Assembly: GCA_049512935.1 (NCBI GenBank)
Contig: JBEKWR010000010.1
Coordinates: 1 to 64,000 of the forward strand
Length of the DNA: 64,000 bases
Reading direction: 5' to 3'
Source of the DNA: Candidatus Bathyarchaeia archaeon
GTDB taxonomy: Archaea; Thermoproteota; Bathyarchaeia; Bathyarchaeales; Bathycorpusculaceae
Part shown: positions 13,312 through 32,747 of the stretch, piece by piece
Numbering within the stretch: the first letter of the stretch is position 1
Layout of the letters: the number at the start of each line of letters is the position of its first letter
Translations under genes and position numbers: made by a program
The notes under the pieces: model-generated
The model's input: only the letters and a program-made list of their open reading frames with translations
Database searches by the model: none
Told to the model about the DNA's origin: nothing

Positions 13312-14718
13312 CTACCCAACGTTTTGCATCAGCGACTCAAAGTCGGCTAAGTCAAAAGCAAAGCAGCCGTGGCGAGTCAAAAGGTTTTTTTCAGCGATTT
13401 TCTTTGCGATTATCCCGTAGCTTTCCCTTTTCCGATCCCATCTAAAGTCTACCGTTTTAGCCTTCAGGTTTTCCACGATTCTTGCGCAGTCGATTTTGCT
13501 TAGGTTGCTCCATTTTGTTTCTATGAATGCCGCTGCCTGTTTTTCTTCGTCAAGTGCCACAATGTCTATTTCCTTGTTTTTGTACCACCATTTTCCGATT
13601 GCTGTGAACGTGAAGGGCAGTTTGCCTTGGTTTTTCATCTCCGTGAGAAATTCAGCTGCGACCTGTTCAAAAGCGTAGCCTAAGTAGGTGTTGTAGTCGA
13701 GTTTTATTTTGTTAAGAACCCCTTGAGTGTTTCCCGCTTCAAGTTCGGTTCTGTTTGGGAAGACGTATTTGAACCAGAAGTTCAGATAGTTGTCCGCAAT
13801 TGTGTATAGTCCTTTTCTCGGCTTAGGCGCAATGCCCATAGGGTAAGTTCTTTCTATAAAGCCGAGGTCTTCGAGCACGCTCGTGTACTTTGAAATTATG
13901 CTTTTATCCAGGCCTGTTCGGTTAAGGATTTCACCGTAGGCTCTCGCGCCCTGAGCTATTGTCTGAAGAATCAGGGCGTAGTTTCGTGGTTCCCGCAGTT
14001 CCTCGCGCAGAAGGAACTCAGCTTCTTCATATAGGAACTCGCCTTTCGTTAAGATTTTTTGCTCGACGTTTTCCCAAAAGTTTAGGTCTGGGTTGAATTT
14101 TTGAAGGTACGCTGGGATCCCGCCGAGGCAGGCGTAAACATGTATCAAAGTTTCTAAACTGTAGTTTGGGTAGAACGGTTTTAGGTAAAATACTTTGAGC
14201 GGTGTGAGTTTCCATTGTGCTGTTCTTCTGCCGTACAGAGGGCTTTTGTAGTCGAGAACTTCAGTTTCCATAGTTGAAACCGAAGAGCCGAGCAGGATTA
14301 GCTTGGTGTCGGTGTTTTTCAGGTTTTGATCCCAGATTTTCTGGAAGATTGATGGAACTGCTCGGTTGGCTTCAATCAATGCTGGGAACTCATCGATTAT
14401 AATGAGCGCGGGGAAGGTTTTATTCCATTTTGTAAACTCTTCGAAGAGTTCTATCCAATCTTTGACCGCGAGTTTTGCGAAGCTTTCATTCCCAAGGTAA
14501 AGGCTCATTTTTTGCTTGAGCTCGTTGATTAGCTCTGTTTCTGGTCGGTGGTCGCCGAGGAAGTAGATGTGGGGTTTGTTTTTTGAGAACTGAAGGGTGA
14601 GTTCTGTTTTTCCGACCCGTCTTCTTCCATAAATGATTATTAGCTCTGGGGTCTGCGTGGTGTAATGCTGTTCTAAGAATTTGGTTTCCTGTTGTCTGTC
14701 CGCGAATAGTTGAATCAT
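13312..14718 (-). CDS. Archaeal ATPase (ATPase_2 + wHTH + DUF234/PD-(D/E)XK)
   Basis: YGRRRVGKT, IIIDEFP, LLGSS, GGIPAYL, EIDIVA...IETKW. Confidence 0.9.
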   Translation of the reverse strand: MIQLFADRQQETKFLEQHYTTQTPELIIIYGRRRVGKTELTLQFSKNKPHIYFLGDHRPETELINELKQKMSLYLGNESFAKLAVKDWIELFEEFTKWNKTFPALIIIDEFPALIEANRAVPSIFQKIWDQNLKNTDTKLILLGSSVSTMETEVLDYKSPLYGRRTAQWKLTPLKVFYLKPFYPNYSLETLIHVYACLGGIPAYLQKFNPDLNFWENVEQKILTKGEFLYEEAEFLLREELREPRNYALILQTIAQGARAYGEILNRTGLDKSIISKYTSVLEDLGFIERTYPMGIAPKPRKGLYTIADNYLNFWFKYVFPNRTELEAGNTQGVLNKIKLDYNTYLGYAFEQVAAEFLTEMKNQGKLPFTFTAIGKWWYKNKEIDIVALDEEKQAAAFIETKWSNLSKIDCARIVENLKAKTVDFRWDRKRESYGIIAKKIAEKNLLTRHGCFAFDLADFESLMQNVG

Positions 14719-14746
14719 GAGTAGGATACTCGTGTTTCAACTATTT
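14712..14746 (-). promoter_or_regulatory. ATPase start/operator element, copy 1 of a 35-bp direct repeat
   Basis: gaatcatgagtaggatactcgtgtttcaactattt contains GAGTA-gga-TACTC; 34/35 identical to 32614-32648. Confidence 0.65.
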
Positions 14747-14809
14747 AACGTTGTCGCGAGGTATACAGCACTAAAAAACTAATTAGAAAAAGACGAGAAA
14801 CATACTCGG

Positions 14810-15097
14810 TTATTCCGTGAAGTTGTACCCTTGAGATTTTAGCTCATGCAGATAACCTTCAAGTGAAAGGGGACAGTTAACTAAATCCAAAAACTTCTTC
14901 CTTTCCAGCCTTAATTGTATAGACATTTTATTAATCAGATAATCGTCGATTTCTCTGTCTCCATGGCTGACTTTCGTGTAGATGGAGGTTTTCCTTTCAC
15001 TTACATAAAGAATCAGGAATGTATGGTCACCCTCAGCTTGAACGAAGCCTTTCTTTTGTAAACCGTTAACGAGCTTTCTTACCTTAATTGTAACCAA
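14810..15097 (-). CDS. HicA-like toxin
   Basis: LQKKGF...EGDH...TKVSHG HicA-like pattern; probable TTG start. Confidence 0.7.
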   Translation of the reverse strand: MVTIKVRKLVNGLQKKGFVQAEGDHTFLILYVSERKTSIYTKVSHGDREIDDYLINKMSIQLRLERKKFLDLVNCPLSLEGYLHELKSQGYNFTE

Positions 15098-15109
15098 GCA
15101 GATTGGCAC

Positions 15110-15622
15110 CTATTGCTTTATGTAACGAAGAATTTTTGCCTTCAATTCTTTAGCGTCATTCGTTAGTTTGCTGCTATCTTCTTTGCCATATTCGTTCCAG
15201 ATAAAAAGAATTTCTTTTTCAAAGTCTTTGACGCATTCTTCAAGCTTGGGCGACATGGCAACAATCCCTAACTCGCTGTTTTGGCAAGAGTAAATGTTGT
15301 TTGTTAGTGAAACATTGGCTATTATGGGTTGGATAAATGAAAGGGTCGAGTCTTCTGCTAAGACGTGGTCTAACGCTATGAAGTATGCAGCGGTTTTGTC
15401 TTTTTCTCTAAGGTCAGCCAGAAGCCTTTTGATTTCTTTGGGAGTGGACAACTGTGCATAGGGTTCGGCTTGATTTGCCATTTGTTTCTTGAGCCTAAAA
15501 AGCACGCCTTCGTTTGTCTCGACTACTTGTAGCTTTGTACCTTTTTCAATCTTAAGTTTTTTACGTAGTCGCGCAGGAATGGTGGTCTGACCTTTCTTAG
15601 TTACAATGACTTCGTTTTCCAT
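15110..15622 (-). CDS. AbrB/SpoVT DNA-binding domain fused to HicB-like domain
   Basis: VTKKGQTTIPARLRKKLKI; C-half ELGIVA...LEECVKDFEKEILFIWNEY; directly upstream of hicA-like gene. Confidence 0.7.
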   Translation of the reverse strand: MENEVIVTKKGQTTIPARLRKKLKIEKGTKLQVVETNEGVLFRLKKQMANQAEPYAQLSTPKEIKRLLADLREKDKTAAYFIALDHVLAEDSTLSFIQPIIANVSLTNNIYSCQNSELGIVAMSPKLEECVKDFEKEILFIWNEYGKEDSSKLTNDAKELKAKILRYIKQ

Positions 15623-15883
15623 CGAACCATCGGCTATTATTAGCAAGTGACTCTTCATTAAAGGCTTTTCGCCCAGTTGGGGCAACTAATGTTTAAGAAA
15701 ATTTCATCGCTGAAATCCTTACTAAAGAATAGGCTCAAAAATGTTGTTGCTCATTTAGTTCAATCTGCGCCTTCGTCCCGTTTACCATAACAATGCCAAA
15801 AAACGGTTGTTGCCGGTCTGTGCACCCTTTTTCTGAAAAAGTTTATTTTACTAGGCGGAATATGTATCTTGTCTGTGGGGCAA

Positions 15884-16195
15884 ATGGCAAAGGCCAAGAT
15901 GGATGAGAATGGCAAGGTTCAGATTCCGTTAGAAACGATAAAGAAGTTGGGATTGAAAAACGGAACGGAGTTTGAACTTAAACAGGACGATGATGTTTTG
16001 GTTTTGAAACAGATTCTTCCAAAGAAATCAAAGGTTAAGAGTCCTCCTTTATCTGCCTCTGAAAAAATGGAAATAGAAGAAAGCGAAAAAGAATTCGCCA
16101 CGCAGACTACACAGGTTTATGATAATGCATCTGACCTTCTCAACGCACTTCGTGCTGAACGAGAAAAAGCACAATCTGCTAAAAGAGCTAAGTAG
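15884..16195 (+). CDS. AbrB/MazE family antitoxin
   Basis: KMDENGKVQIPLETIKKLGLKNG; acidic C-half ending YDNASDLLNAL. Confidence 0.75.
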   Translation: MAKAKMDENGKVQIPLETIKKLGLKNGTEFELKQDDDVLVLKQILPKKSKVKSPPLSASEKMEIEESEKEFATQTTQVYDNASDLLNALRAEREKAQSAKRAK

Positions 16196-16204
16196 GCAAC
16201 CAAT

Positions 16205-16471
16205 TTGTGGAAGGCAAAGCCGTCAAACCGTTTTAAATCAAGCTACAAAAACCTAAGCGATGATATGGCTCAAAGGGTTGATTCTGCGCTCAAAAGCTTG
16301 TTGGGTGCAGATAAACCCGAACGGCTGGGTATAGCCAAAACTGCAAGCCGAAAAGGTTACTTTGCATTTGAACTGGGACGAAGTTGCAGGATAATATACC
16401 GTCCGATCTATGACCAAAAAACGATTGAGTTTTTACGAGTGTGCTCGCACAAAGAAGCCTACAATCCATAA
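16205..16471 (+). CDS. RelE/YafQ-like toxin
   Basis: SNRFKSSYKNL...CRIIY...IEFLRVCSHKEAY. Confidence 0.75.
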   Translation: MWKAKPSNRFKSSYKNLSDDMAQRVDSALKSLLGADKPERLGIAKTASRKGYFAFELGRSCRIIYRPIYDQKTIEFLRVCSHKEAYNP

Positions 16472-16490
16472 ATCTAAAAATCGAAAAGCA

Positions 16491-16530
16491 TTTACTACAC
16501 ACCCTGTAGCACTACAGACCCTGTAGTAAA
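16491..16530. repeat. Two tandem 16-bp dyad units within an outer inverted repeat
   Basis: actacacaccctgtag (16494) and actacagaccctgtag (16511); outer TTTACTACA...TGTAGTAAA. Confidence 0.7.
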
Positions 16531-16667
16531 AAACAAACTGTTCGGTTAAATTCAGCGAGTGAGTTCACTTTCAGCTACCCCTCCACTATTCACGGGTGTC
16601 TTTTCGCCGCTTTGCTTAAAAGGGATAAGCGATGCAGTAGGATTTCTCCAAGTAAACGGGGAAAACC

Positions 16668-16722
16668 GTCTATTTGGATCCTATATAGGATCCTATTTGG
16701 ATCATCTAGAAAACCTATAGGG
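16668..16722 (+). repeat. 55-bp palindromic element, copy A
   Basis: Contains perfect 18-bp palindrome ggatcctatataggatcc; 51/55 identical to reverse complement of 25625-25679. Confidence 0.9.
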
Positions 16723-16729
16723 GATACCC

Positions 16730-17044
16730 TTGGAAAAAAAAGAAAATGAAGAAAATGAGCCAACAGTCGACAAGCTGATCGCTATAGAATGGGACCTTCT
16801 AAACGACTTGAAAAAAATGTTAAGCAACGCCACAGCCCAAGGCGAAAAAATCAGGCTTTCGAACGCCGTCGCATACCACGCCATCGTACTAAACAAACTG
16901 CTCGCCCAGAAGGGCCAAGAGCAAGCGTTTAACGAAGACACCTTGGGCGATTTCGTCGGGAGACACAACGCTGAGGGGAGGATGCGTAGGGCGATAAGAA
17001 GGGACTTTAGGAATTGGAAGAAAAAGCTTTCATCGACAGAATAA
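16730..17044 (+). CDS. Putative terminase small subunit (helical hypothetical protein)
   Basis: 104 aa, overlaps terL start, basic C-terminus; assignment is positional only. Confidence 0.5.
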   Translation: MEKKENEENEPTVDKLIAIEWDLLNDLKKMLSNATAQGEKIRLSNAVAYHAIVLNKLLAQKGQEQAFNEDTLGDFVGRHNAEGRMRRAIRRDFRNWKKKLSSTE

Positions 17045-18483
17045 CAAGCGACATAGAATACGCGGCTTCAGAATGCGAGGGTTTACTGCAAAGACCAAAA
17101 GCACTAAGGCAGCTCATAGCCCACCCCGAAGTCACCCGTAAACTGGTTGAGGACCCAGTGTTTTTTGCGGTGCTAATGTGCGGCGACAAATGGCTCCCAA
17201 AAGCGCCAGAGCATCAAAAACTGCTTCGAGATTCCAGCCCCAGGCAGATAGCTGTTTGCGGTCGAGGATGGGGCAAAAGCTTGGTTTTCAGCAGAAAAAA
17301 TCTTTGGCTGCTTTACACGAAATCTAAGATAGAGAGCCTTATCATCAGCAGCACACAGCGTCAGTCAATGATAATGTTCGATTACTGCTACTTCACCATC
17401 ATGGCGAACCCGCTGATGAGAGAAATGGTTTTGAAGCCTGGAACAACCCGCACCGCGATTAGGCTGAAGCCCCCGTTGGGTGGGAAAATAGTTGCTCTCC
17501 CATGCTCGAAAGACCGGCTCAGAGGTTACCATCCCGACTATGTCTTCATCGACGAGGCGTCAATCGTTCCAGGCGAAATGATTACCAGCGAGATAATGAT
17601 GATGCTAACAAAACCCGGCGCAAGCTTAGTCATGAGTGGAACGCCTATGGGTTCTGACCATGTTTTCCGCAAGGCGTTCTTGGACACGAAACGTTACAGC
17701 GTTCATCATTACGCGAGTTATCAGAGTCCTCTGGTTAGCCCCGCCCAGTTGGACGAGTGGAAGGAGGTTATGACTCAGGAGGAGTGGGAGCGTGAGGTTG
17801 AAGGCTTATGGGTTGAAGCGACACACACGTTTTTCCCGATGGATCTGATTGTGTCCTGTGTTGACCCTGAACTAGGCAACCCTGAATCAGCCAAAGCCTA
17901 CATCGAAGACATCGAGAAAGTCAAGGAAGAAAACAAACTCATCGGACCATACTACGCGGGGCTGGACTTGGGCAAGCAGATGGACTACAGCGTGCTCGCC
18001 GTCGTTCAGAAGAGCCAAAACGGCGACATAAGACTGGTTCATAAGCGCCAGTTTCCACTAGGCACAAGCTACCCTGAAGTCATCGGCTACGTGGCAAGGG
18101 CTGAGCAAGTTTTCCGTTTTGAGAGGCTAAATGTTGACAAGGGCGGGATAGGCGACGCCGTCGTGGACGAACTCAACAACATTAACGTTCCATCCGTTGA
18201 AGGCGTCTTCTTCACCGATGCCGAGAAGGAGAACATGCTAAACAACGTCAAGTTGCTGATGGAAAAGAAGCGGCTAAAGATTGCTGGCGACGACAAGGCG
18301 TTGTTTGTGCAGATCAACGAGCAGGAGTACGCGTATCTTCAGCCTAAAACCGCGCAGGAACGGATCCACCTTAAATTCTGGCATCCGCAAGGGAAACATG
18401 ACGACCAACTAATGGCGTTGGCACTCGCGTGCAAGGCAGCTCAAACCGCGGCGCCTCCGGGCGTCGGCGCCTTCATCCTCTAA
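17014..18483 (+). CDS. Terminase large subunit (ATPase + RNase H-like nuclease)
   Basis: Walker A CGRGWGKS, LRG, Walker B VFIDEA, SGTP; nuclease AGLDLG...DYS, VDKGGIG, HDDQLMALALA. Confidence 0.9.
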   Translation: MEEKAFIDRITSDIEYAASECEGLLQRPKALRQLIAHPEVTRKLVEDPVFFAVLMCGDKWLPKAPEHQKLLRDSSPRQIAVCGRGWGKSLVFSRKNLWLLYTKSKIESLIISSTQRQSMIMFDYCYFTIMANPLMREMVLKPGTTRTAIRLKPPLGGKIVALPCSKDRLRGYHPDYVFIDEASIVPGEMITSEIMMMLTKPGASLVMSGTPMGSDHVFRKAFLDTKRYSVHHYASYQSPLVSPAQLDEWKEVMTQEEWEREVEGLWVEATHTFFPMDLIVSCVDPELGNPESAKAYIEDIEKVKEENKLIGPYYAGLDLGKQMDYSVLAVVQKSQNGDIRLVHKRQFPLGTSYPEVIGYVARAEQVFRFERLNVDKGGIGDAVVDELNNINVPSVEGVFFTDAEKENMLNNVKLLMEKKRLKIAGDDKALFVQINEQEYAYLQPKTAQERIHLKFWHPQGKHDDQLMALALACKAAQTAAPPGVGAFIL

Positions 18484-18824
18484 GTGCACTCTCGCATGGT
18501 GTAGCCGCAGTTGACGCAGCGGAAAAACTGGGTTGACGACTCGTCTGACCATCGGGTCTGCACCTGCCAGACGTTGGCGGTTTTGTTGCCGCATCTGGGG
18601 CACTCGATCTGAAGCGTCGGCAGCGTGCTGAGTTGTTCTTCCTTCCCGATAACAGCCACGAACTGCTTAGGATTGTGCTCAAACACTTTGCCGTTGGCCT
18701 TCGCTGCGGGGGTCTCCTGCTTTTTAAAGTGGCATTTGGTGCAAACAAGCATAATTAACTCTTGTTTATCTGACTTGACTTTCTTTTGGACAAGACGTGA
18801 ACCGCATTGTGCGCAAAACTCCAT
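18480..18824 (-). CDS. tfs: Transcription factor S
   Basis: MEFCAQCG...CTKC; CPRCG...QTRWSDE...FFRCVNCG. Confidence 0.9.
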   Translation of the reverse strand: MEFCAQCGSRLVQKKVKSDKQELIMLVCTKCHFKKQETPAAKANGKVFEHNPKQFVAVIGKEEQLSTLPTLQIECPRCGNKTANVWQVQTRWSDESSTQFFRCVNCGYTMRECT

Positions 18825-19053
18825 AGGTTGCATCTCCTTTAAAAAAATTTATGGCAAATGATGGTTCTTGACTTCGGCGCAAGCCAAAAAGGTGTTCTAA
18901 GGAGAGTGTGGGGAACATTACTCTACAGCTTGCACATCAGTCAACCATTCACTTGCTAAACGCCAAGGACTTACCGCATCCTCTGCGCTTGATGAACATT
19001 AATGCTCACTTCAGCAATAAAAAATAATGTGACTGTGCATACACTACAACAAG

Positions 19054-19683
19054 CTACAAGTGTTTCCTAGACTTCTTCATCACGGCAGCCTTCTTCAGAT
19101 CCAGCGGCGTCTTCACACGAAAGAAACTTCGAAAATCAGGGTCCAACTGCTCAATAACCAGTGTTGAAACATAACGCACGCCGCGCAGACAGCCAACAAT
19201 TGCATCTGCATTGAATTCCCCAGACGCCAACGCTTTCTTCGCCGCTTCCAACGCTTGCCCCGTATGATAAACCGCATGCAAAGACTCAATCTTGCAGTCA
19301 GGCCATCGGGGAACAACCGCTGACTTGCCCTCAGCCAACTCAAAAAGCAGCGACACAACCTCTTTGGAAACAAACGGCGCGTCAGAGGGCAAAACCAGCG
19401 AGTAATCACCCTGCGCAGCTTCAAAACCCGCTAAAGCGGCAGCCAAAGACCCCTGCGGCTCTTCAGCGTTGACGGCGAATTGAACGTTAGCCGACGAAAC
19501 CGTCTTGGCGTACACGTCTGCCTGCTCCTTTGAACCCGCAACCACAAGCACTTCGCCGACTACGCCCTTAACCGCGTCAACCACGTGGTTCAACAACGGT
19601 TTATTGTCTAGTTTCAAAAGCGCCTTGTCTTCACTGAACATGCATAGAAAATCGTCAGGTATGATGATTACGGATTTATCCAA
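19054..19683 (-). CDS. MobA-like nucleotidyltransferase with degenerate N-terminal motif
   Basis: DKALL, LPSDAPFV, ESLHAVY, SFFRVKTPLDL; LAGG loop absent; start uncertain. Confidence 0.7.
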   Translation of the reverse strand: MDKSVIIIPDDFLCMFSEDKALLKLDNKPLLNHVVDAVKGVVGEVLVVAGSKEQADVYAKTVSSANVQFAVNAEEPQGSLAAALAGFEAAQGDYSLVLPSDAPFVSKEVVSLLFELAEGKSAVVPRWPDCKIESLHAVYHTGQALEAAKKALASGEFNADAIVGCLRGVRYVSTLVIEQLDPDFRSFFRVKTPLDLKKAAVMKKSRKHL

Positions 19684-19791
19684 ACAGGAGGCATCTCCAC
19701 CCATTAGTTGCAAAACAAGTTAAAAAAACATGCGGAAAACATCGTTAACCCAATGAAACTCGGTGAAACCTTCGGCCTGTCTGAAAGAAAA

Positions 19792-20052
19792 TTAAGCCAT
19801 GGTTTTTCTATCACTTTTTAAAAAGCCAGGTTTGAAACTGGCGTCGTCGTCGAAGTCTAAGCGTAGGAGTCTGTGCTGGCATTTGCTTTCTTTGCAGCCG
19901 TAGAGGTACAGGTTTGGGTTGCCGAAGTTAGTTGTTAAGGCTTGGGTTCTTGCATTGCAGTTTTCGCATTGTGGCGCTCGAACTTGATTGTTTAGAACGT
20001 ACCCTTTGATGAGTCGTACGCTCCACGTTTTCTCCTTAAAAATGTGCTGCAT
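19792..20052 (-). CDS. Small zinc-ribbon hypothetical protein
   Basis: CENC and CKESKC pairs. Confidence 0.45.
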   Translation of the reverse strand: MQHIFKEKTWSVRLIKGYVLNNQVRAPQCENCNARTQALTTNFGNPNLYLYGCKESKCQHRLLRLDFDDDASFKPGFLKSDRKTMA

Positions 20053-20432
20053 AAAAAAACGCTCCGAAAAAAACATTGAGAAGGATCAGCAAAAATGGAA
20101 ATTCGCCATACACTCATCAGTGTTGAAGTTTAAATCGTTTTGTGATTGTGACGCAACAACAACTTTTCTGAAACAGCAACAAACTATAAAAATTGCATAC
20201 GGTAATTTTCCATCGGGTTTTTATCAACTACTCGACAGAACCTCAACCGCAGAACCGCCGAGCCCAAACCAAACCCCGGAAGCCCAAAAACCCAAAAACC
20301 GTAACCAGCAAATCCTGCCGCAGGGCACGCGAGGTTCGGTTTCAAGCTAAGGATTCTCGATAAGTAGGGCAATTTCATAAGTTAGTTAAACACGCCTCGC
20401 CACTCTAAGATATGAAATCTGGAGGAAAAAAC

Positions 20433-20612
20433 ATGAAACAATTCGGAGAAAAAACCCGAAAAGCACTCGAAGCCAAACTCGCGTGCGCATTCGAAGAAAA
20501 TATCACCCAATTGTCGACAGAATTGCGTGAAATATTGCTAGATGACATGGTTACAGCATTCGAAAATAGATTAAACGTGTTAAACCGCGCATCCGTAAAT
20601 GCCAAGAATTAA
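20433..20612 (+). CDS. Small helical hypothetical protein
   Basis: SD GGAGG before ATG 20433; amphipathic LSTELREILLDDMVTAFENRL. Confidence 0.6.
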   Translation: MKQFGEKTRKALEAKLACAFEENITQLSTELREILLDDMVTAFENRLNVLNRASVNAKN

Positions 20613-20699
20613 GACTAAACAATGAACCAAAATATTGATTACCAATACACAAATGATTTATATATAAAACAATGATGTGACTAAAAAGAGGAGTATAAA

Positions 20700-20993
20700 G
20701 TGCGTCGTTCAAAACTCGAAATGTATGTAGACATCCTTTCGGTTCTGGCTCACAGAGGACCACTAAAACTAACACACGTCATGTACAAAGCAAACGTCAA
20801 CTGCAGCGTACTCAAAGAGTACCTTGAATTCCTCATAAAACAAGGCCTCGTCGAAGAACGCACAATAGGCAAACGCCGCGTAGTCTACGCCGTCACACAA
20901 CGAGGCATAACAGTACTAAAATACTTCAAAGAACTAAAACAAGTCCTCCCCATAGTAGAAGAATCACGAAACCAAACACCAATCCCCTACTAA
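20700..20993 (+). CDS. Archaeal winged-HTH regulator (HTH_45-like)
   Basis: RRSKLEMYVDIL...THVMYKANVN...YLEFL...GLV...YAVTQRG; SD GAGGAG. Confidence 0.85.
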   Translation: MRRSKLEMYVDILSVLAHRGPLKLTHVMYKANVNCSVLKEYLEFLIKQGLVEERTIGKRRVVYAVTQRGITVLKYFKELKQVLPIVEESRNQTPIPY

Positions 20994-21212
20994 ACCCCAC
21001 ACCAACCCACACAACCTAATTTTAACAACAACCAAAACACCAACCAACACCCAACAACTCTCAAATTTTCAACAACCAACAGAACAGACTCCCTTCCACA
21101 ATTTTCGGTTTACCTGTTTGAAATACATACTTCTGTTTCGTAATACTTAATAAACACTTAAGGGAACTGTAGATGTGCAAAACAGTTTGGGGGTCTCGTT
21201 ATTAAGGATGAG

Positions 21213-21581
21213 TTGTTGACGAAAAAGCCGATTGTTATCCTTGAAAAGATTGAGGAGAGTCTTGAGAGGCTTAATGAGAAGATGGAAGTGATTATTGAGA
21301 TTCAGAAAAACAGTGGCGATGCTCAGAGGTCCGCGGCTGCATTGCCTGATGCTTCTTTAGATGTTATGACTCTTCTTTCCATGCCTGATCATTTGCGCAA
21401 GACGGCGATGGCGATTTGCAGGTGCGGCAGGGCGACAGCTGAGGAGATTTCTCAGCAGACTAATCGCGCGAGAGCGGTGGAGAGCGCGTACCTTAATCAG
21501 CTTGTAATCATGGGTTACCTCAAGAAGGAGCGGGATGGAAGGAAAGCCTGCTTTTTCGTGGACAGCGAAGCGCGGAGTTGA
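21213..21581 (+). CDS. Coiled-coil + wHTH DNA-binding protein
   Basis: N-terminal heptads; LSMPDHLRKTA...ATAEEISQQTNRARAVESAYLNQLVIMGYL. Confidence 0.75.
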   Translation: MLTKKPIVILEKIEESLERLNEKMEVIIEIQKNSGDAQRSAAALPDASLDVMTLLSMPDHLRKTAMAICRCGRATAEEISQQTNRARAVESAYLNQLVIMGYLKKERDGRKACFFVDSEARS

Positions 21582-21590
21582 GTGTTCGAT

Positions 21591-22370
21591 ATGAGCAAAA
21601 TAATCGCTGTACACTCCTACAAGGGCGGCACGGGAAAGACGCTTCTGTCCGTGAATTTGGCTGCTACGTTAGCGAAGGCTGGCAGGAAAGTCTGCGTTTT
21701 CGACCTTGACTTTCGAGCTCCAAGCTTATTCGCCATCTTGAAGACTGAAAACTCGGAGTTCTGGTTTAACGATTACTTAAACGACGCCGCCGACATTGGG
21801 AAGGTACTTGTGGATTTAAGCGGCAGAATTGGGGGGAACGGCAAGTTCTATGCTTCCTTGGCCAACCCAGCGACTGAGGCGATCAGGGACATGTCTTCGA
21901 AGGATAGAAAGTGGGAAATGCGCGCATTGGCAAGGCTGCTTGCTCTGAGGGAGACGCTGCTTGCCAGCCAAAAGTTTGATTACCTCTTCTTCGACACCAG
22001 CCCGGGACTGCAGTACTCGTCCATAAACGCCATCGTAGCCGCCGACTTCGTGATTGTTGCGACAACGGCCGATCGCTCCGATGTGGATGGAACAAAACGC
22101 ATGCTTCAGGAACTGTACAACCTGTTCGAGAAGAAAACGGGTCTCGTGCTGAACAAGGTGCTTGACGCGTCTGCCACGGCTAAGAAGGCTGAAATGAGCG
22201 CCAAAGTAAAAGCTTCTTACCAAGTGCCTATGCTAGGGCTTGTGCCCTGCTTCTGTGAGGTTCTAAGAGCCGAAGGCAATTTCATCTTCGCCCAGGACAA
22301 GCCAGACCACCCGTTCACCAAGATACTTGCAGAGATGGCAAGAAAAATAGAAAACAACGAGTTAGAGTAA
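21591..22370 (+). CDS. MinD/ParA family ATPase
   Basis: Deviant Walker A HSYKGGTGKT, FDLD, FFDTSPG, LVLNK. Confidence 0.9.
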   Translation: MSKIIAVHSYKGGTGKTLLSVNLAATLAKAGRKVCVFDLDFRAPSLFAILKTENSEFWFNDYLNDAADIGKVLVDLSGRIGGNGKFYASLANPATEAIRDMSSKDRKWEMRALARLLALRETLLASQKFDYLFFDTSPGLQYSSINAIVAADFVIVATTADRSDVDGTKRMLQELYNLFEKKTGLVLNKVLDASATAKKAEMSAKVKASYQVPMLGLVPCFCEVLRAEGNFIFAQDKPDHPFTKILAEMARKIENNELE

Positions 22371-22493
22371 CCGAAGAATTAAAACCCTTTTTTCCACCGT
22401 GTTCTTCCCATGTTTTTTGCCGCCGTTTGAACCATAGGGCATCCATCGGTTTCACTATTTTCTTTGTGTATCCCAGCAAAAAATCTTTTGATG

Positions 22494-22775
22494 TCAGCGT
22501 TTCTTTTGGTTTTTGTTTAGGCGGGGATTTGCTATTTCGTTTTGTCTTGATCCGTAGATCAGCAAAGATCCCTGCGATTCCTTCAACCCCAAGCCGTGCT
22601 TGTTCACAAGCGTTTTCACGTTCTGGAGTTTCATTCCGTCAAGACTCATGTTTATTTTGAGGTCAACGTCTTTCTTGGAAAGCGTGCTCGGCGACAACGA
22701 TATGCAGCTCACGAACGCGTCTGGCATACACTTACAAATCTCTTCGAAAAGTCGAATTGCCTCGCGTCTGCGCAT
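22494..22775 (-). CDS. Hypothetical protein
   Basis: Protein-like ORF MRRREAIRLFEEIC filling the gap; no family recognised. Confidence 0.45.
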   Translation of the reverse strand: MRRREAIRLFEEICKCMPDAFVSCISLSPSTLSKKDVDLKINMSLDGMKLQNVKTLVNKHGLGLKESQGSLLIYGSRQNEIANPRLNKNQKKR

Positions 22776-23243
22776 CACGCTACCTTGCAAATCACATAGT
22801 AATCCCGCGTGAACATAAGGCAATTGCGGTCAATCTTAAGTGAAAAAGGGCCTGCAAAGCTGTTTAAGCCAACATCTTTTTTGACAGATCGGCATGGCGA
22901 GTCAACTTGAAAAAACGATTAACGTTTTTCCCTGACAAAATTAATGCGTACTTGAAAAGTTTTGCAGGTTTCACAGGGCTTATTTTACACAAAAGTGTCT
23001 TACCGCGCAAACCTACTATCGAAGAATCCAGTTGCCCGAAAAAGTTGTGCCAAATAACGCGAAAGCAAGCTTAAACAGCAGCGTACTGGAAGCTATCTTG
23101 CCAAAGAAGGAGCCTGAAAAAACCAAAAAACTGAAAATTGCGTAAGCCAGAGAGTTTTTTTCCCATTTTTCCCTGAATTTTTTGATTTCGAAGTTATGTT
23201 TGGAAATTGCGGCTTTTTCGTTTCGATGCGTGCTGCTTCTGTT

Positions 23244-23549
23244 TCAGGCTTCATTGATTTGCTGCTTGACGGCCATCACTTTGTCGTTCATGGTGCGCGG
23301 TTTGTCTCTGCGGTCGTCTATTCTAAGCGTGGAGGCAACCCTTGCGGCGCCCATGGCGACGACGGCTTCGTGTGCCCTTCGGACGGCTTCAAAGATGGTG
23401 TCTAGGCTGTCTGCGGCGAGAACCGTTCCCATGGGTGTCACTTCAAACTCTAAGCCTTTCACGCTTCCAAACGTTTTAACTGCGGCCGCAACGTAGTGGC
23501 TAACGCTGGTTTCGCCGGTGCCGACGGGCACGATGCTGAACTCAGCCAT
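23244..23549 (-). CDS. MTH1187/UPF0045 thiamine-binding family protein
   Basis: AEFSIVPVG...SVSHYVA...TPMGT...RIDDRRDK. Confidence 0.9.
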   Translation of the reverse strand: MAEFSIVPVGTGETSVSHYVAAAVKTFGSVKGLEFEVTPMGTVLAADSLDTIFEAVRRAHEAVVAMGAARVASTLRIDDRRDKPRTMNDKVMAVKQQINEA

Positions 23550-23687
23550 GAAAACGTGGTTCTTAACCAAACCCTAAACGCTCCTGACTCAACTATTTTC
23601 AGTTTGGAATATTAAGCTTCTCAGTGACTCTGCTCGGCGGTGCAAACCTTGGGTTAAACTTCGAAGGGAACCTTTTTTGGCTTGGTG

Positions 23688-24362
23688 TTATGCTTGTTTG
23701 CGTTTTCTGGTTATAGCCCAAATTGCCATGAGCGAAACGATGCTTAGCAGCAGCAAAACCAGCAGGGTGTACGTCGCGCCTATCTTGCCGATTAGAACTT
23801 CAGCGGTGCCTGCTAGCCCGAACGCGATGAAAATGGATGCTGAAACCCATTTGACGACTTTTTCTGGGATGTGCTTGCCTAAAACTACTCCTACGCCGAT
23901 GCCGACGCCGTCAGCAACCAGCATGCCGAGCGTGGCGCCGATTAGCACGGCGAGGGCGCTTCTGTATTGAGCTGCTAGGCTGACGGTTGCAAGCTGGGTC
24001 TTGTCTCCGAACTCCGCGATAAAAAATGCTGCGCCTACGGTTCCGACGACGCCGAAACGTGAATTTTTCTGTTTTTCAGCCTTGGGTTTTTCTGGTCTCA
24101 GAGTCCATAAGCCGAATCCGATGAACGATAGGGAAGCCGCCAGCGAGATTGCGTCTATGGGTACGACGGCGGTGAGAAGTTGTCCGATGGCTACGGTGAT
24201 TGCGAAGTTGGCGATGGTTGCGAGGAAAACTGCGAAGAGCACTTTGCCTGGGTTGTATTTTGCGGCGAAGGTCATGGCTATGAACTGTGTTTTGTCGCCC
24301 ATTTCAGCCAGGACGATGAGGGCGAAGGAGGCGGTGAAGGCGGCTACGCTGAACTCGAACAA
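23688..24362 (-). CDS. TMEM165/GDT1 (UPF0016) Mn/Ca transporter
   Basis: Two motifs: AEMGDKTQ and AEFGDKTQ. Confidence 0.92.
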   Translation of the reverse strand: MFEFSVAAFTASFALIVLAEMGDKTQFIAMTFAAKYNPGKVLFAVFLATIANFAITVAIGQLLTAVVPIDAISLAASLSFIGFGLWTLRPEKPKAEKQKNSRFGVVGTVGAAFFIAEFGDKTQLATVSLAAQYRSALAVLIGATLGMLVADGVGIGVGVVLGKHIPEKVVKWVSASIFIAFGLAGTAEVLIGKIGATYTLLVLLLLSIVSLMAIWAITRKRKQA

Positions 24363-24422
24363 GGCATTTCATAGAAGAGTCATCTGCGCTTGTTTATTTA
24401 GTTTCCATTGGGCGTTCGCCTG

Positions 24423-25427
24423 TTACAATGGGGGTTTAGCGATGCTTCCGCTGTTGAGTGTCTTCGTCCACTGCTGGAACTCGTTTGAAGGGGGAAAGTC
24501 GCGGTAAAGTTGCTTGCGCTTGTTCTCTAAAAACGTGTTTTCGCTGCCAGTGTACTCTGCTGCAGTGACGACGCTGTGCCCCGCCGCTGTAGCCTGCTGG
24601 AAAACGCCGTTCAGCTTTTGCTTCCACTCTTCATCCCTCAAAGCATGATGCTCAACGATGACAATTGGCGTCGCCTGGACGATGCGCTCAAGATTTTGCA
24701 GGCCCTGCTCCAACTGCGTTGTGGCAACTCTGGAGCCTTCCAGATAAAGCGGCGGTCCACCCAGCATGATTACGGCGGGCTCTGCCTTCAAAATCAGCTC
24801 TAGCGTCTGCTGCGTCATAGGTCCCTGTACGTCAGGCGCAAACATGAACCGTTCATCCGCGTACTCCACCACTGCCATGATAACCCAGCCTAGCCCTGAA
24901 TCCTGTGAGCCGTGAGCGACAGGTGCTGAGAAATGCAGCTTTGTCTTGCCGAAGGTGAAGGTTTTTCCGTCGGCTGCCTCAAGCGCCTTGGCGTGTTTGC
25001 CGCCTGTCTTCTGAAACATCCATGCCCGCTGCCTCTGGCTCGCGTTGATCTGCTCTTTCGGGTTCTTGGCAAGCACGGTTTTGCCCTGGTAGATTTGCTG
25101 TGCGGTTACGGTTTGCTCTGTCCAGTTGACCAGCCAGTCCTCAAAGCTTGGTGTGTGATGGTCGAAATGGTAGTGGCTTATCGTCACGACCTCGGCTTTG
25201 TCTGCTGCCTCAGCGATTTTCCGCCTCATCAGGGCAATGGTTTGGAACTCGATGGGGTGCGGCGGCAAACCGTAGCGGTACGGGCACAATGAAACCCCAG
25301 CGTCTAAGAGCACAACCGCATCAGGTGTCTCGACCAGCGTGCACATTGAGCGGACTCCGAAGCTTTCCGCCGCCAACGGAGTAACCCTGATGCTGCTTAG
25401 AGGGCTGCTTGCTATCTTTTGAGTCAT
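24423..25427 (-). CDS. Archaeal MBL-fold hydrolase (UPF0282-like)
   Basis: AAESFGVRSM, SHYHFDHH, DVQGP, EHHALRD. Confidence 0.85.
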   Translation of the reverse strand: MTQKIASSPLSSIRVTPLAAESFGVRSMCTLVETPDAVVLLDAGVSLCPYRYGLPPHPIEFQTIALMRRKIAEAADKAEVVTISHYHFDHHTPSFEDWLVNWTEQTVTAQQIYQGKTVLAKNPKEQINASQRQRAWMFQKTGGKHAKALEAADGKTFTFGKTKLHFSAPVAHGSQDSGLGWVIMAVVEYADERFMFAPDVQGPMTQQTLELILKAEPAVIMLGGPPLYLEGSRVATTQLEQGLQNLERIVQATPIVIVEHHALRDEEWKQKLNGVFQQATAAGHSVVTAAEYTGSENTFLENKRKQLYRDFPPSNEFQQWTKTLNSGSIAKPPL

Positions 25428-25624
25428 GCTGTGTCACGCCGAAATCGCTAGTTGCTTACGCCGCGGAAGGGTAAATGGCTTTTGCACGCCTAGTATTTGT
25501 GATGGGTTTTGGTTGTAAATACTAAACCCCTCTCCGTCTCCCTCTCAAAGAGCCCGTTCTGCCGGCTGCTCAGTCGAAAATAGCGAGGACGCATGGTAGG
25601 GTTTTTCTTTTTTCGTCCCGTCTA

Positions 25625-25679
25625 CCCTATAGGTTTTCTAGATGATCCAAATAGGCGCCTATAGAGGAGCCAAATAGAC
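25625..25679 (-). repeat. 55-bp palindromic element, copy B (inverted relative to copy A)
   Basis: Reverse complement gtctatttggctcctctataggcgcctatttggatcatctagaaaacctataggg; 4 mismatches to 16668-16722. Confidence 0.9.
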
Positions 25680-26033
25680 AAAAAACGCTGCGCCACAACA
25701 GCTAACACGGAAAAAAAACGACAGAAATATCCCACGAAACTTAACGGAGAAATCAATCCCCTAAGAACTAAACAGGACCCTTTTTTTTGTTTTGGCTTGA
25801 ATGCTTTTAGATGAATGGGCGCTGAAAGAGAGGGGTGACCAGTGTTTTTTGAGTGGTTTTTTTGGAATATTCCAAAAGTTCAAGAAATAATGCATTAGGA
25901 AAGGCGGCTCTTCTTTTGGTTTTGTTTTGGGTTGTTTTTTGATTTAGGGCTAGAAACGTGCTTTAGCAAGCAAGGGTTCCTGTGGCAATTGCATCGGAAA
26001 GCCCCCGAAAAGGCGCATCACCCGAATCGGTTG

Positions 26034-31730: not shown

Positions 31731-32282
31731 ACGCAGAGGCTTAACAGACTGTTCATAACCGCGCTTTTCGGTTCCATAATCTTCGTCATCAACGCCTTCC
31801 TTCCGCCGCCCATAAACTACGTGCTAATCGTCGTCCAAGCCGTCGTCCTCGCGTTAAGCGGTTTATTCGTCAAAAGACTTGGCGCAACATACGTCGGCGC
31901 CGTCGGCGGACTCCTAACCGCGCTTGGAAGCCCAGCTTTGGGACCCTTCACTTTCCTGTTTTCCTTCCTCTACGGCGCATTAACCGACGGCTCCCTGATC
32001 CTGTTCAGAATCAACGCCACCAACGCGGGCGTGAACCGCAACAGGCTGATGATTGCGATGGCGGTTGCCACGATGCTTATCGGGTTGATCAGTTACTCGG
32101 CGTTTGCGCTTTTCCCCCAGTTTGTTCCTTTGGCAAGGGAGTTTTCAAGCGTCGGCTTGTTCATTCAGAGAAGCACCATGCTTGACGTGCTTGTGCTGTT
32201 TATGGGTCCAGCTACGGGGGTGGTGGCGGGTTACGCTGCAGCTTACCTGTGGAACAAGTACCTGCGGCACATCCGCGTTTAA
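31731..32282 (+). CDS. ECF S-component-like membrane protein, start uncertain
   Basis: Multi-TM protein with GATYVGAVGGLL; an extra in-frame TM helix lies upstream of the GTG at 31821. Confidence 0.55.
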   Translation, partial: TQRLNRLFITALFGSIIFVINAFLPPPINYVLIVVQAVVLALSGLFVKRLGATYVGAVGGLLTALGSPALGPFTFLFSFLYGALTDGSLILFRINATNAGVNRNRLMIAMAVATMLIGLISYSAFALFPQFVPLAREFSSVGLFIQRSTMLDVLVLFMGPATGVVAGYAAAYLWNKYLRHIRV

Positions 32283-32548
32283 AGGCAGCGCTGCCTGATT
32301 TTCTCGTCAACCAACTTTGCAACCATCAAGTTGGAGATGAACACGCATTTGACGCCCAGCAACTCGGCAAGTTCAGCGGGCTTCTGGTCCTGAGTTACCA
32401 AGAGCAGGTTGTTCTTGCCCGCGTACTCGACGACTGTGCGGTCCTTGGCGCTTTTTAAACCCGCTTCCTGAGCAGTCAGCACTTCGTAACCTAAAGTTTC
32501 GAGGTATTCCTTCAAGCCAGCGTACATTTCATCGAGCAGAATCTTCAT
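32279..32548 (-). CDS. DUF5615 PIN-like protein
   Basis: MKILLDEM...LGYEV...GL...KD...LLVTQD. Confidence 0.8.
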   Translation of the reverse strand: MKILLDEMYAGLKEYLETLGYEVLTAQEAGLKSAKDRTVVEYAGKNNLLLVTQDQKPAELAELLGVKCVFISNLMVAKLVDEKIRQRCL

Positions 32549-32613
32549 GCGTCATCGCTTTCTGTTTCCGCGTCAAAGTTATTTAGCTTTTACCTTCCTT
32601 TAGAGAAACTGGA

Positions 32614-32648
32614 GAATCATAAGTAGGATACTCGTGTTTCAACTATTT
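32614..32648 (-). repeat. Copy 2 of ATPase start/operator element, followed by MILQFL-stop
   Basis: 34/35 identical to 14712-14746. Confidence 0.75.
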
Positions 32649-32747
32649 GATTAACCAGGAAAAGACGCCGCAGTGCGTCTGCGCCCAGCAAACAAAAGCT
32701 GGACGGCTGCCAATCTCGGGTGAAGAACGACCCAAAAAAGAAGCTGC

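What the first reader, a model, noticed from the sequence alone, without database searches (positions are those of the whole stretch)
16730..18483. Orphan, catalytically intact terminase module with no virus around it
Seen: TerL keeps all ATPase and nuclease motifs with no frameshift. Its stop overlaps the stop of the convergent core gene tfs, leaving no room for a portal gene. Upstream are only TA pairs and an ATPase-nuclease. No portal, capsid, tail or integrase was recognised in 64 kb. Inference: a domesticated packaging motor (dispersed gene-transfer agent, helper-virus hijacking or lateral transduction using the 55-bp sites) or an antiviral decoy in a TA/defence island, rather than a decaying provirus.
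Basis: partly seen in the sequence, partly recalled or inferred. Interest (0 to 1): 0.8.

Follow-up and report, generated by a model that had tools for sequence, protein, structure and literature searches.

The report
Stand-alone viral DNA-packaging gene pair
An archaeon from the Bathyarchaeia keeps an intact pair of virus DNA-packaging genes with no virus around them, and dozens of related species have conserved the same pair, so it looks like a retained tool rather than viral debris.

Summary
Window 17014-18483 encodes an intact 489-aa large terminase (TerL). A 104-aa gene (16730-17044) overlaps its start, and its stop overlaps the stop of a convergent tfs gene. No portal, capsid or integrase was detected on this contig.

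The pair is a sharply bounded two-gene cassette found in 47 loci of Bathyarchaeia species genomes. Of these, 37 are intact, 7 disrupted and 3 cut by contig ends. Selection is purifying (median dN/dS 0.11 for terL, 0.24 for the small gene). TerL diverges about as slowly as SecY and largely co-diverges with the hosts, but the cassette is patchy (14 of 61 genus genomes), sometimes relocated, exchanged or lost.

Neighbours are host genes and toxin-antitoxin pairs. The tfs adjacency is specific to this genome. Only two environmental "viral" contigs carry the cassette inside a compact head-tail gene cluster, which points to its origin.

- The "55-bp sites" are a dispersed ~80-nt repeat that also occurs in a genome without the cassette.
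- A dispersed gene-transfer agent is not supported.

My reading: a virus-derived packaging enzyme kept by selection as an accessory module, probably acting in trans on capsids of co-resident head-tail viruses. That mechanism is inferred, not shown.

The parts
16668..16745 (+). Copy of a dispersed ~80-nt intergenic repeat. It has two 23-nt half-repeats (CTATTTGGnTCnTCTA) followed by a GGGGTAG-type ribosome-binding-like stretch, and it forms the promoter/5' region of the small gene.
   Evidence: Inverted partner at 25602-25679, 83% complementary. There are 7 copies by the motif scan and 7 BLAST matches with one weak extra. The core TATTTGGATCAT lies 65-105 nt upstream of the small gene in 13 of 43 loci. 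No Rfam match.
16730..17044 (+). o104: a 104-aa all-helical protein, the conserved upstream partner of TerL. It is small-terminase-like by position only.
   Evidence: The same family lies immediately upstream in 38 of 39 full-length loci by clustering. The 39th (L052) has an extended ORF ending at the same base. The overlap with terL is 31, 34, 22 or 58 nt in 38 loci. dN/dS is 0.24. The AlphaFold2 model has four helices, pLDDT 83.5. No Pfam, PHROG, PDB or BFVD relative.
17014..18483 (+). TerL: large terminase with an N-terminal ATPase and a C-terminal RNase H-like nuclease, intact.
   Evidence: dN/dS is 0.107. More than 120 protein clusters at 71-100% identity, nearly all 485-502 aa with a few shorter.
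18480..18833 (-). tfs (transcription factor S paralogue). This is a neighbouring host gene, not part of the module. Its stop overlaps the terL stop.
   Evidence: Pfam Zn_ribbon_TFIIS 5e-14. Paralogues on C4 (65%) and C26 (49%). In relatives tfs sits between o108 and mobA, away from terL.
13312..16471 (.). Variable islet upstream of the cassette. It holds a DUF234 ATPase (13312-14718, minus strand), a 99-aa gene with a MazE-like 191-aa gene (14810-15685, minus strand), and an AbrB-like 108-aa gene with a ParE-like 88-aa gene (15869-16471, plus strand).
   Evidence: Pfam and PADLOC. The content of this islet differs among the syntenic relatives.
25602..25679 (-). Second, inverted copy of the ~80-nt dispersed repeat, between the metallo-beta-lactamase-fold gene and hisS.

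Best explanation
**Shown**
- The locus is a two-gene cassette of viral origin: a catalytically intact large terminase (ATPase plus nuclease) and a translationally overlapping 104-aa helical partner.
- The cassette stands alone in the chromosome.
- It has been kept by purifying selection in many Bathyarchaeia species as an accessory module. It is patchy, mostly inherited vertically, and occasionally relocated, exchanged or lost.
- It derives from the packaging slot of compact head-tail elements of these archaea, where the same cassette still sits in two environmental contigs.

**Inferred.** The pair works as a packaging enzyme in trans.
1. When a head-tail virus or element of the same kind replicates in the cell, the host-encoded enzyme cuts DNA and docks on that element's empty capsids.
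2. This diverts capsids from the virus (interference), fills them with host DNA (transduction), or both.

The partner protein's role as DNA-recognition subunit is inferred from its position alone. I give about 0.85 to the shown part and about 0.4 to the trans-packaging mechanism.
For: **An enzyme kept for activity**
- Intact motifs and 146 invariant columns in 39 orthologues.
- dN/dS is 0.107 for terL over 75 pairs, range 0.05-0.26. It is 0.24 for o104 over 105 pairs.

**Conserved pairing.** The partner gene lies upstream in 38 of 39 full-length loci, plus one extended ORF, with a conserved 22-58 nt overlap.

**Long residence in the host**
- TerL identity falls from 88% to 64% while SecY falls from 93% to 62% across the same genomes.
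- The trees are largely congruent: Pearson r = 0.42 between the tree distances, and 0 of 2000 Mantel permutations reached it, over 26 genomes.
- Six species share the neighbourhood.

**Stand-alone state**
- DNA similarity between orthologous loci starts inside o104 and stops at the terL stop.
- Related species G047 and G048 have an empty site, against a 2.2-kb insertion in L068.
- Among 145 immediate neighbours of 37 loci, no phage structural family is in the 25 families listed. The most frequent are ParA-type (6), PIN (6) and MazE (4).
- 0 of 47 genome loci hold head-tail cluster genes within 10 kb.

**Viral origin**
- IMG/VR contigs L035 and L119 carry the cassette in the order tube, tail, fam4, small gene, [o104-TerL], ABC-ATPase.
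- The sister branch is a 43%-identical TerL on a 32-kb IMG/VR contig.

**Potential capsid donors**
- This genome has a head-tail provirus with its own TerL at 33% identity, plus portal, scaffold, head protein and tape measure on C24.
- The ABC-ATPase marker of such elements is present in 28 of 37 cassette genomes.
Against: - No experiment or structure links this TerL to any portal. Terminase-portal docking is usually specific, and the resident provirus TerL is only 33% identical.
- The partner shows no similarity to any known small terminase.
- 21 of 37 cassette genomes show no portal or capsid by PF04860, PF05133 or PF05065. These models do miss the C24 head protein.
- 7 of 44 informative loci are disrupted and only 14 of 61 genus genomes carry the cassette, so it is dispensable.
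- No conserved packaging-site candidate was found. The upstream repeat is not specific to the cassette.
- PADLOC does not list the pair.
- Element-borne copies are interspersed in the tree, so repeated orphaning from viruses is not excluded.
Confidence: 0.45

Rival explanations
1. Capsid-independent role. The ATPase-nuclease and its partner act directly on DNA as an abortive-infection, defence or DNA-processing enzyme, without packaging anything.
For: - The cassette sits beside toxin-antitoxin pairs and a PADLOC candidate ATPase in the window.
- PIN, MazE and HicA families recur among neighbours.
- A TIR-domain gene is adjacent in L063.
- A ribbon-helix-helix-like regulator gene is linked in 26 of 49 loci.
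- The distribution is patchy and accessory.
- Many cassette genomes lack detectable portal or capsid genes.
Against: - No known defence family matches.
- Most neighbours are ordinary host genes.
- Retaining the whole two-domain terminase and its overlapping partner, unchanged in length, is what a packaging function needs. I know of no precedent for a terminase acting as a free defence nuclease (from my own knowledge; searches found none).
Confidence: 0.2
2. Inert remnant of a decayed provirus. terS-terL is simply the last part left and has no function for the host.
For: - 7 of 44 informative loci are truncated, frameshifted or reduced to a C-terminal stub. One genus genome carries 8 in-frame stops.
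- Element-borne copies exist.
- These genomes do contain decaying provirus fragments: portal pieces with stops in G045 and G075.
Against: - dN/dS is about 0.1.
- 37 loci are intact, with invariant catalytic residues.
- The same two genes and nothing else of the element survive in every chromosomal locus.
- The position is conserved across species whose SecY differs by up to about 15%.
- Some frameshifts may be long-read errors, because SecY is also frameshifted in two of these assemblies.
Confidence: 0.1
3. Self-mobilising selfish cassette. The terminase nuclease/ATPase and its partner move or home the two-gene unit between chromosomal sites.
For: - The cassette has sharp boundaries.
- Sites are occupied or empty in close relatives.
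- The cassette is relocated in G041 although its TerL is sister to the window's.
- G004 holds two divergent copies.
- G047, G048 and G045 are discordant with the host tree.
- No integrase lies nearby.
Against: - No terminal inverted or direct repeats with any consensus flank the cassette in the 37 loci examined.
- There is at most one full copy per genome apart from G004 (2 copies), which is 71% complete.
- Inheritance is mostly vertical.
Confidence: 0.1
4. Packaging component of a dispersed gene-transfer agent whose head and tail genes lie elsewhere in the genome.
For: - The pair evolves at a host-like rate and is inherited vertically.
- Structural genes do exist elsewhere in this genome (C24).
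- At listing and abstract level, PMC6854486 describes the small terminase of the Rhodobacter capsulatus gene-transfer agent. That its genes are dispersed over several loci is from my own knowledge.
Against: - The C24 cluster has its own TerL next to its portal.
- No second portal or head protein was found in this genome.
- Portal or capsid models hit only 16 of 37 cassette genomes, never near the cassette.
- The cassette is present in only 14 of 61 genus genomes.
Confidence: 0.08

Closest known systems
Large terminase (TerL) of tailed viruses; Pfam Terminase_6N/6C, PHROG_2. The nearest solved structures are PDB entries 5m1f, 5tge and 4zni, titled 'Phage terminase large subunit'; assigning them to Thermus phages G20c and P74-26 is from my own memory.
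   Same: Two-domain ATPase plus RNase H-like nuclease, with all catalytic motifs, and a small gene overlapping its start.
   Different: There is no portal, capsid or tail next to it in 47 chromosomal loci. It evolves at the pace of a housekeeping gene and is inherited with the host.
Compact head-tail gene clusters of Bathyarchaeia, seen in loci L028-L031 and IMG/VR contigs L035 and L119.
   Same: L035 and L119 carry the same o104-TerL cassette at 68-75% identity, in the slot between a 130-aa gene plus a small gene and an ABC-ATPase/acetyltransferase gene.
   Different: The window has none of the tube, tail, neck or ABC-ATPase genes beside the cassette.
Phage satellites that carry packaging genes: PICIs, and the minimalist PICMIs (PMC10803314, listing and abstract seen).
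   Same: Small chromosomal units that rely on a helper's capsids and redirect packaging.
   Different: Satellites have an integrase, attachment sites and replication or regulation genes, and they excise. Here there is no integrase on the contig, no flanking repeats, and a full TerL rather than only a small terminase. That PICIs usually carry only a small terminase is from my own knowledge.
Lateral transduction from prophage packaging sites (PMC8575950, PMC8575938, PMC12829572; listings and abstracts seen).
   Same: In-situ packaging that starts at a chromosomal terminase site would mobilise flanking genes, including defence genes.
   Different: Lateral transduction is driven by a complete prophage. 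Here only the enzyme genes remain, and no packaging site was identified.
Gene-transfer agents (for example RcGTA; PMC6854486, listing and abstract seen).
   Same: Virus-derived genes kept by the host and inherited vertically.
   Different: No consistent structural gene set accompanies the cassette, and its distribution is patchy.

Membership tests
Large terminase (TerL) | Profile match to the N-terminal packaging ATPase domain | tested here: met
   Pfam Terminase_6N 25.1 bits against a cut-off of 22. PHROG_2 4e-35. 4zni ATPase domain 4e-3.
Large terminase (TerL) | C-terminal RNase H-like nuclease domain | tested here: met
   Terminase_6C scores 20.7 bits, just below its 22.6 cut-off. The solved nuclease domains 5m1f and 5tge match at 2e-8 over residues 312-473.
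Large terminase (TerL) | Walker A, Walker B with catalytic Glu, and nuclease acidic residues present | tested here: met
   G83-S89, D180-E181, D318, D375, D381, D463 and D464 are invariant in 39 sequences. They align to the D...D...DD positions of the solved nuclease. Which residues are catalytic in the solved enzymes is from my own memory.
Large terminase (TerL) | DNA packaging into procapsids through a portal | not testable with these tools
   No portal lies next to the gene. This needs biochemistry.
Small terminase (TerS) | Gene immediately upstream of terL, small, co-translated | tested here: met
   It overlaps terL by 22-58 nt in 38 loci.
Small terminase (TerS) | Sequence or fold similarity to a known TerS family (DNA-binding domain plus oligomerisation core) | tested here: inconclusive
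   No Pfam or PHROG hit. Foldseek against PDB and BFVD, and VIA-align, give only generic helical matches. hhalign to the small ORF upstream of another TerL clade gives probability 17%.
Intact or decaying provirus | Portal, capsid, tail or integrase genes in the neighbourhood | tested here: not met
   None on contig C10. None within 10 kb in 47 orthologous loci.
Gene-transfer agent | Structural head-tail gene set co-occurring with the packaging genes in the same genomes | tested here: inconclusive
   PF04860 hits 11 of 37 genomes, PF05133 1 of 37, PF05065 8 of 37, and 21 of 37 show none. The models are insensitive for archaeal viruses.
Phage satellite (PICI/PICMI type) | Integrase and attachment-site repeats bounding the element | tested here: not met
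   No PF00589 hit on C10. No flanking direct or inverted repeats with a consensus.
Known anti-phage defence systems (PADLOC-DB v2) | Match of TerL or its partner to a system model | tested here: not met
   0 families for TerL, o104 and the linked ribbon-helix-helix gene.
Transposon or insertion sequence | Terminal inverted repeats or target-site duplications; multiple identical copies | tested here: not met
   Only chance-level 10-13 nt matches with no consensus. One full copy per genome except G004.

The most novel reading that the evidence does not exclude
A terminase holoenzyme has been exapted by an archaeal lineage as a free-standing chromosomal module. It either forms a new kind of anti-virus system that steals or jams the capsids of infecting head-tail viruses, or a minimal 'transduction platform' that loads host DNA (including the adjacent variable toxin-antitoxin/defence islet) into foreign capsids. 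In either case it has been kept for a time span comparable to genus- or family-level divergence without any structural genes of its own.
Probability: 0.3. Interest if true: 0.85.

Novelty: new variant of a known kind. Interest (0 to 1): 0.62.

Why it matters
Virus genes kept by cells usually come as whole machines (gene-transfer agents, tailocins) or as satellites that still excise. A packaging enzyme alone is different.

- **What is unusual.** The pair has been conserved for a long time, under strong constraint, in dozens of uncultured Bathyarchaeia species.
- **What it would show.** The motor-nuclease itself can be a selectable host asset. This bears on how archaea fight or exploit their viruses and on how chromosomal genes move in sediments and peat.
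- **A practical marker.** This TerL family triggers 'viral contig' calls, although most copies are chromosomal orphans.

Tried and rejected
- **Complex prediction.** The o104 plus TerL job gave no verdict: scores 0.00, 0.33 and 0.01 against a mark of 0.32. It is not used either way.
- **Fold searches for o104.** PDB, BFVD and VIA-align wide gave only generic helical bundles. The ESM Atlas gave only Bathyarchaeota hypotheticals and a sub-threshold DUF8136 lead.
- **Fold of the linked ~120-aa gene.** Only a weak Arc-repressor-like N-terminus, probability 0.6-0.7 over 39 residues.
- **Rfam on 16300-26000.** No match.
- **Bacterial promoter and terminator scan.** Uninformative for an archaeon.
- **Expression.** One metatranscriptome run holds a single 215-nt contig identical to 17259-17473. 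It covers nothing else, and DNA carry-over cannot be excluded. This is not evidence of transcription, and it does not cover the terL-tfs junction.
- **A first search that misled me.** blastn-short suggested the 55-bp motif was absent from orthologous loci. A looser motif search corrected this.
- **A wrong early idea.** I suspected a 117-127-aa gene after terL in relatives was a tfs paralogue. The alignment shows it is unrelated.
- **Contig C42.** I considered that C42, which has the 130-aa gene, the small gene and the ABC-ATPase with no terminase between them, marks an element that depends on the window's TerL. It more likely continues the C24 provirus, as in G041. This is an inference.
- **Transposon-like ends.** None found.
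- **Earlier findings of this scan.** Nothing on this genome, sequence or topic.
- **Literature.**
  - The searches 'Bathyarchaeia + terminase', 'terminase large subunit + archaea + domesticated', 'orphan terminase', and a six-term defence-island search found no description of a stand-alone terminase in archaea.
  - In the two Bathyarchaeia papers I read only the passages that mention terminase.
  - Supplementary tables of those papers were not seen and could list such genes.
Full report
**1. What is in the window**

The window is contig C10 of a 2.3-Mb, 93%-complete genome. Its close protein relatives are labelled Bathyarchaeia/Bathyarchaeota in public records.

- ORF 17014-18483 (+, 489 aa) is a large terminase. 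Pfam Terminase_6N scores above its cut-off and Terminase_6C just below. PHROG_2 matches at 4e-35.
- Its nearest solved relatives are the nuclease domain (5m1f/5tge, 2e-8) and ATPase domain (4zni, 4e-3) of entries titled 'Phage terminase large subunit'.
- Walker A (G83-S89), Walker B (D180-E181), the G209-T-P211 motif and the acidic residues D318, D375, D381, D463 and D464 are present. All are invariant in 39 orthologues.
- A 104-aa ORF (16730-17044) overlaps the terL start by 31 nt.
- The terL stop (TAA, 18481-18483) overlaps the stop of the convergent tfs gene (18480-18482).
- Upstream lie a ParE/AbrB-like pair, a MazE-like gene with a 99-aa gene, and a DUF234 ATPase that matches the PADLOC candidate PDC-S27.
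- Downstream lie tfs, a MobA-like nucleotidyltransferase, small winged-helix genes, a ParA-type ATPase, a thiamine-binding protein, a GDT1 antiporter, a metallo-beta-lactamase-fold protein and histidyl-tRNA synthetase.
- No portal (PF04860), HK97 capsid (PF05065) or tyrosine integrase (PF00589) maps to this contig.

One nuance: tfs has two paralogues elsewhere in the genome.

**2. The same genome shows what a real provirus looks like**

- Contig C24 carries a second TerL (33% identical) at 32111-33508.
- A portal follows it directly (PF04860 3.7e-16; PHROG portal 2e-30). Further on come a scaffold protein, a major head protein, a neck protein and a tape-measure protein.
- No further copy of these structural genes exists in the genome.

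The window's TerL is thus not the packaging gene of the only recognisable virus here.

**3. The pair is a conserved cassette**

- A protein search found more than 120 clusters at 71-100% identity, nearly all 485-502 aa with a few shorter, many on contigs of 0.1-2.3 Mb.
- At 50% clustering, one representative (68%) stands for all of them. The next relative is at 44%.
- A scan of one genome per species returned 47 loci, all in Bathyarchaeia or unclassified archaeal MAGs.
- By my ORF calling and clustering, the 104-aa family sits immediately upstream in 38 of 39 loci with a full-length TerL. The 39th has an N-terminally extended ORF ending at the same base.
- The overlap with terL is 31 nt in 25 loci, 34 in 8, 22 in 4 and 58 in 1.
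- A third gene of about 115-166 aa occurs in 26 of the 49 loci examined. It has a ribbon-helix-helix-like N-terminus (weak Arc-like fold match).
- That third gene is the next, convergent gene after terL in 11 of 38 full-length loci. It is absent from the window.
- All other neighbours vary. Among 145 flanking proteins from 37 loci, the most frequent Pfam families are ParA-type (6), PIN (6) and MazE (4). No phage structural family is among the 25 listed.
- The few long same-strand genes after terL are, for example, a GH57 glycosidase and a TIR-domain protein, not portals.
- DNA similarity between orthologous loci begins inside the small gene and ends at the terL stop.

**4. Selection and integrity**

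| Gene | Median dN/dS | Range | Pairs used (0.05 < dS < 1.5) |
|---|---|---|---|
| terL | 0.107 | 0.05-0.26 | 75 |
| o104 (104-aa gene) | 0.24 | 0.06-0.79 | 105 |
| third gene (~120 aa) | 0.26 | 0.12-0.55 | 111 |

These are Nei-Gojobori estimates.

Of the 47 genome loci, 37 are intact, 3 are cut by contig ends and 7 are disrupted:
- one has a single frameshift;
- three have several frameshifts;
- two have lost the N-terminus;
- one is an 88-residue C-terminal stub.

Some frameshifts may be assembly errors, because SecY is also frameshifted in two of these assemblies. One genus genome has 8 in-frame stops, which is a real pseudogene.

**5. History**

- In a sample of 61 genomes of the genus, 14 carry the cassette: 11 intact, counting this genome, and 3 truncated or broken.
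- Across cassette-bearing genomes, identity to the window's TerL falls from 88% to 64% while SecY identity falls from 93% to 62%.
- TerL and SecY trees for 26 genomes share most groupings. Pearson r = 0.42 between the tree distances, and 0 of 2000 Mantel permutations reached it. G047, G048 and G045 are discordant.
- Six species (the window, L071, L037, L038, L068, L075) share one neighbourhood. The order is MBL-fold gene, GDT1, thiamine-binding gene, tfs, mobA, a variable toxin-antitoxin islet, o104-TerL, then the ParA block.
- In the window this region is rearranged, so that tfs abuts terL. In the other five species, tfs where detected (four of them) lies on the far side of mobA. The terL-tfs junction therefore has no conserved meaning.
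- G016 has tfs through ParA in the same order as the window. This shows that the block itself is natural.
- G047 and G048, nested among these species by SecY, have an empty site of about 200 bp between mobA and the next gene. L068 has a 2.2-kb insertion there that holds only the repeat, o104 and terL.
- G047 and G048 carry a different cassette lineage elsewhere.
- G041 has the window's sister lineage at another chromosomal place.
- No conserved terminal repeats flank the cassette.

The pattern is long vertical residence with occasional relocation, replacement and loss.

**6. Origin**

- A profile-based scan of IMG/VR found 13 related loci, only two of them at cassette-level identity (L035 at 75%, L119 at 68%; both contig names share one metagenome number).
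- In both, the cassette lies in a compact head-tail cluster. The full order, seen in L119, is: tail-tube-like protein, HK97-gp10-like neck protein, tail protein, a 130-aa gene, a small gene, [o104-TerL], and an ABC-ATPase/acetyltransferase gene. L035 is cut at both ends: the ABC-ATPase end is missing and no neck-gene match was found.
- The same architecture occurs in other Bathyarchaeia genomes (L028-L031), with a different small gene (helix-turn-helix type) and a TerL only 27-32% identical.
- In a rooted tree the cassette TerLs form one clade on a long stem. The sister is a 43%-identical TerL on a 32-kb IMG/VR contig. L119 branches near the base, and L035 is next to a chromosomal orphan.

The cassette is therefore the packaging module of this kind of element, and it has become free-standing. 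Whether that happened once or several times is not settled. Two facts argue against many independent decays:
- exactly the same two genes, and nothing else of the element, remain in all 47 chromosomal loci;
- the conserved synteny in section 5.

**7. The '55-bp sites'**

- The sequence upstream of o104 (16668-16745) and its inverted copy at 25602-25679 belong to an ~80-nt repeat. This genome has 7 copies by the motif scan, and 7 BLAST matches with one weak extra.
- G068 has at least 24 copies, G071 at least 25, and G088 has 10. G088 has no cassette, though it is only 82% complete.
- The repeat has no Rfam match.
- Its core, TATTTGGATCAT, lies 65-105 nt upstream of the small gene's conserved part in 13 of 43 loci, including distant lineages. 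A GGGGTAG stretch and the start codon follow it. It looks like the gene's promoter and ribosome-binding region.
- Because the repeat family also lives in a genome without the cassette, it is not good evidence for terminase recognition sites.

**8. The partner protein**

- With 42 homologues, AlphaFold2 gives a four-helix protein: pLDDT 83.5, helices 13-33, 37-60, 69-80 and 83-102.
- Neither sequence profiles nor fold searches connect it to any known family.
- Similarity to the small ORF upstream of another TerL clade is weak: hhalign probability 17%.
- It is small-terminase-like only by position, size and coupling.
- The complex prediction gave no verdict.

**9. Mechanism**

Shown:
- a catalytically intact, constrained terminase with a constant partner;
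- no structural genes of its own;
- descent from head-tail elements that are common in these genomes. The ABC-ATPase marker is present in 28 of 37 cassette genomes, and most genus genomes have several other TerL homologues.

Inferred: the enzyme is kept because it acts on capsids supplied by such elements. It either starves the virus of capsids, or loads host DNA into them, or both.

Known analogies are satellites that redirect helper packaging (PMC10803314) and lateral transduction, including transduction of defence genes (PMC8575950, PMC8575938, PMC12829572). I saw only the listings and abstracts of these papers.

Against this reading:
- no portal partner is identified;
- three Pfam models find portal or capsid genes in only 16 of 37 cassette genomes, though these models miss the C24 head protein;
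- the cassette is dispensable in most of the genus.

A capsid-independent nuclease or defence role is the main rival. An inert remnant, a self-mobilising cassette and a dispersed gene-transfer agent are less likely, for the reasons given under each rival.

**10. Novelty**

I found no description of a stand-alone terminase cassette in archaea in four full-text searches. The two Bathyarchaeia papers mention terminase only as part of complete (pro)viruses, in the passages I read. Their supplements were not available.

I class this as a new variant of a known kind: virus-derived genes retained by the host. It is unusual in that only the packaging enzyme is retained.

Noticed in passing
G000 contig C24, about 32100-53715 (loci L084, L085, L118); probably continued on C42 (L086): A head-tail provirus with TerL, portal, scaffold, head, neck, tape-measure and a long tail-fibre-like gene lies about 5 kb downstream of secY. 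G041 has a portal about 7 kb from secY on the same contig, with the ABC-ATPase marker 22 kb further on. G043 and G075 have only portal fragments there, those of G075 with stops. This suggests an old provirus inherited at one locus.
   Followed up: partly
window 16668-16745 and 25602-25679; also C10:89278-89356, C4:88282-88359, C6:131265-131344, C16:4313-4385, C11:22903: An ~80-nt dispersed intergenic repeat made of two 23-nt half-repeats and a conserved tail. It has 7-8 copies here and at least 24-25 in two close relatives. There is no Rfam match. It may be a miniature mobile element or a shared regulatory site, and it may drive the local inversions.
   Followed up: partly
L028 and L029 (both in G014), L030, L031: Compact clusters of about 12 kb hold a 460-aa gene, a 340-aa gene, a tube-like gene, a gp10-like gene, a tail gene, terS-TerL and an ABC-ATPase/acetyltransferase gene. 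The two copies in one genome are 81-83% identical over about 9 kb. They could be small viruses, satellites or gene-transfer-agent-like units.
   Followed up: partly
G000 contig C3, 3671-6414 (L087): A second orphan-looking packaging cluster in this genome. It has a split ABC-ATPase/acetyltransferase gene, a 152-aa gene and a 421-aa TerL-like gene (24-29% identical to the window's by two searches), and it is flanked by sugar-nucleotide enzyme genes (identified by eye from the N-terminal sequences; no family search was run on them). Similar TerL-like genes of 421-437 aa occur in G013, G016, G020 and G021.
   Followed up: no
window 18480-18833; C4:37348-37689; C26:25331-25663: The genome has three transcription factor S paralogues, at 100%, 65% and 49% identity to the window's copy.
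   Followed up: no
window 19700-25700 compared with L161, L162, L164, L068, L071: The block of small winged-helix genes plus ParA, and the tfs-mobA pair, occur in at least four different orders and orientations among closely related species. This is a local hotspot of inversions.
   Followed up: partly
window 14712-14746 and 32614-32648: A 35-nt direct repeat (97% identical) spans the start of the DUF234 ATPase gene and a second site 17.9 kb away.
   Followed up: no
window 134-1033 and 51649-52595: Two genes hold 120-nt periodic repeats in opposite orientation. They encode repeat proteins that match PQQ/beta-propeller-like proteins found many times in the genome.
   Followed up: no
L063:11632-12390: A TIR-domain protein sits directly after the cassette in one species.
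   Followed up: no
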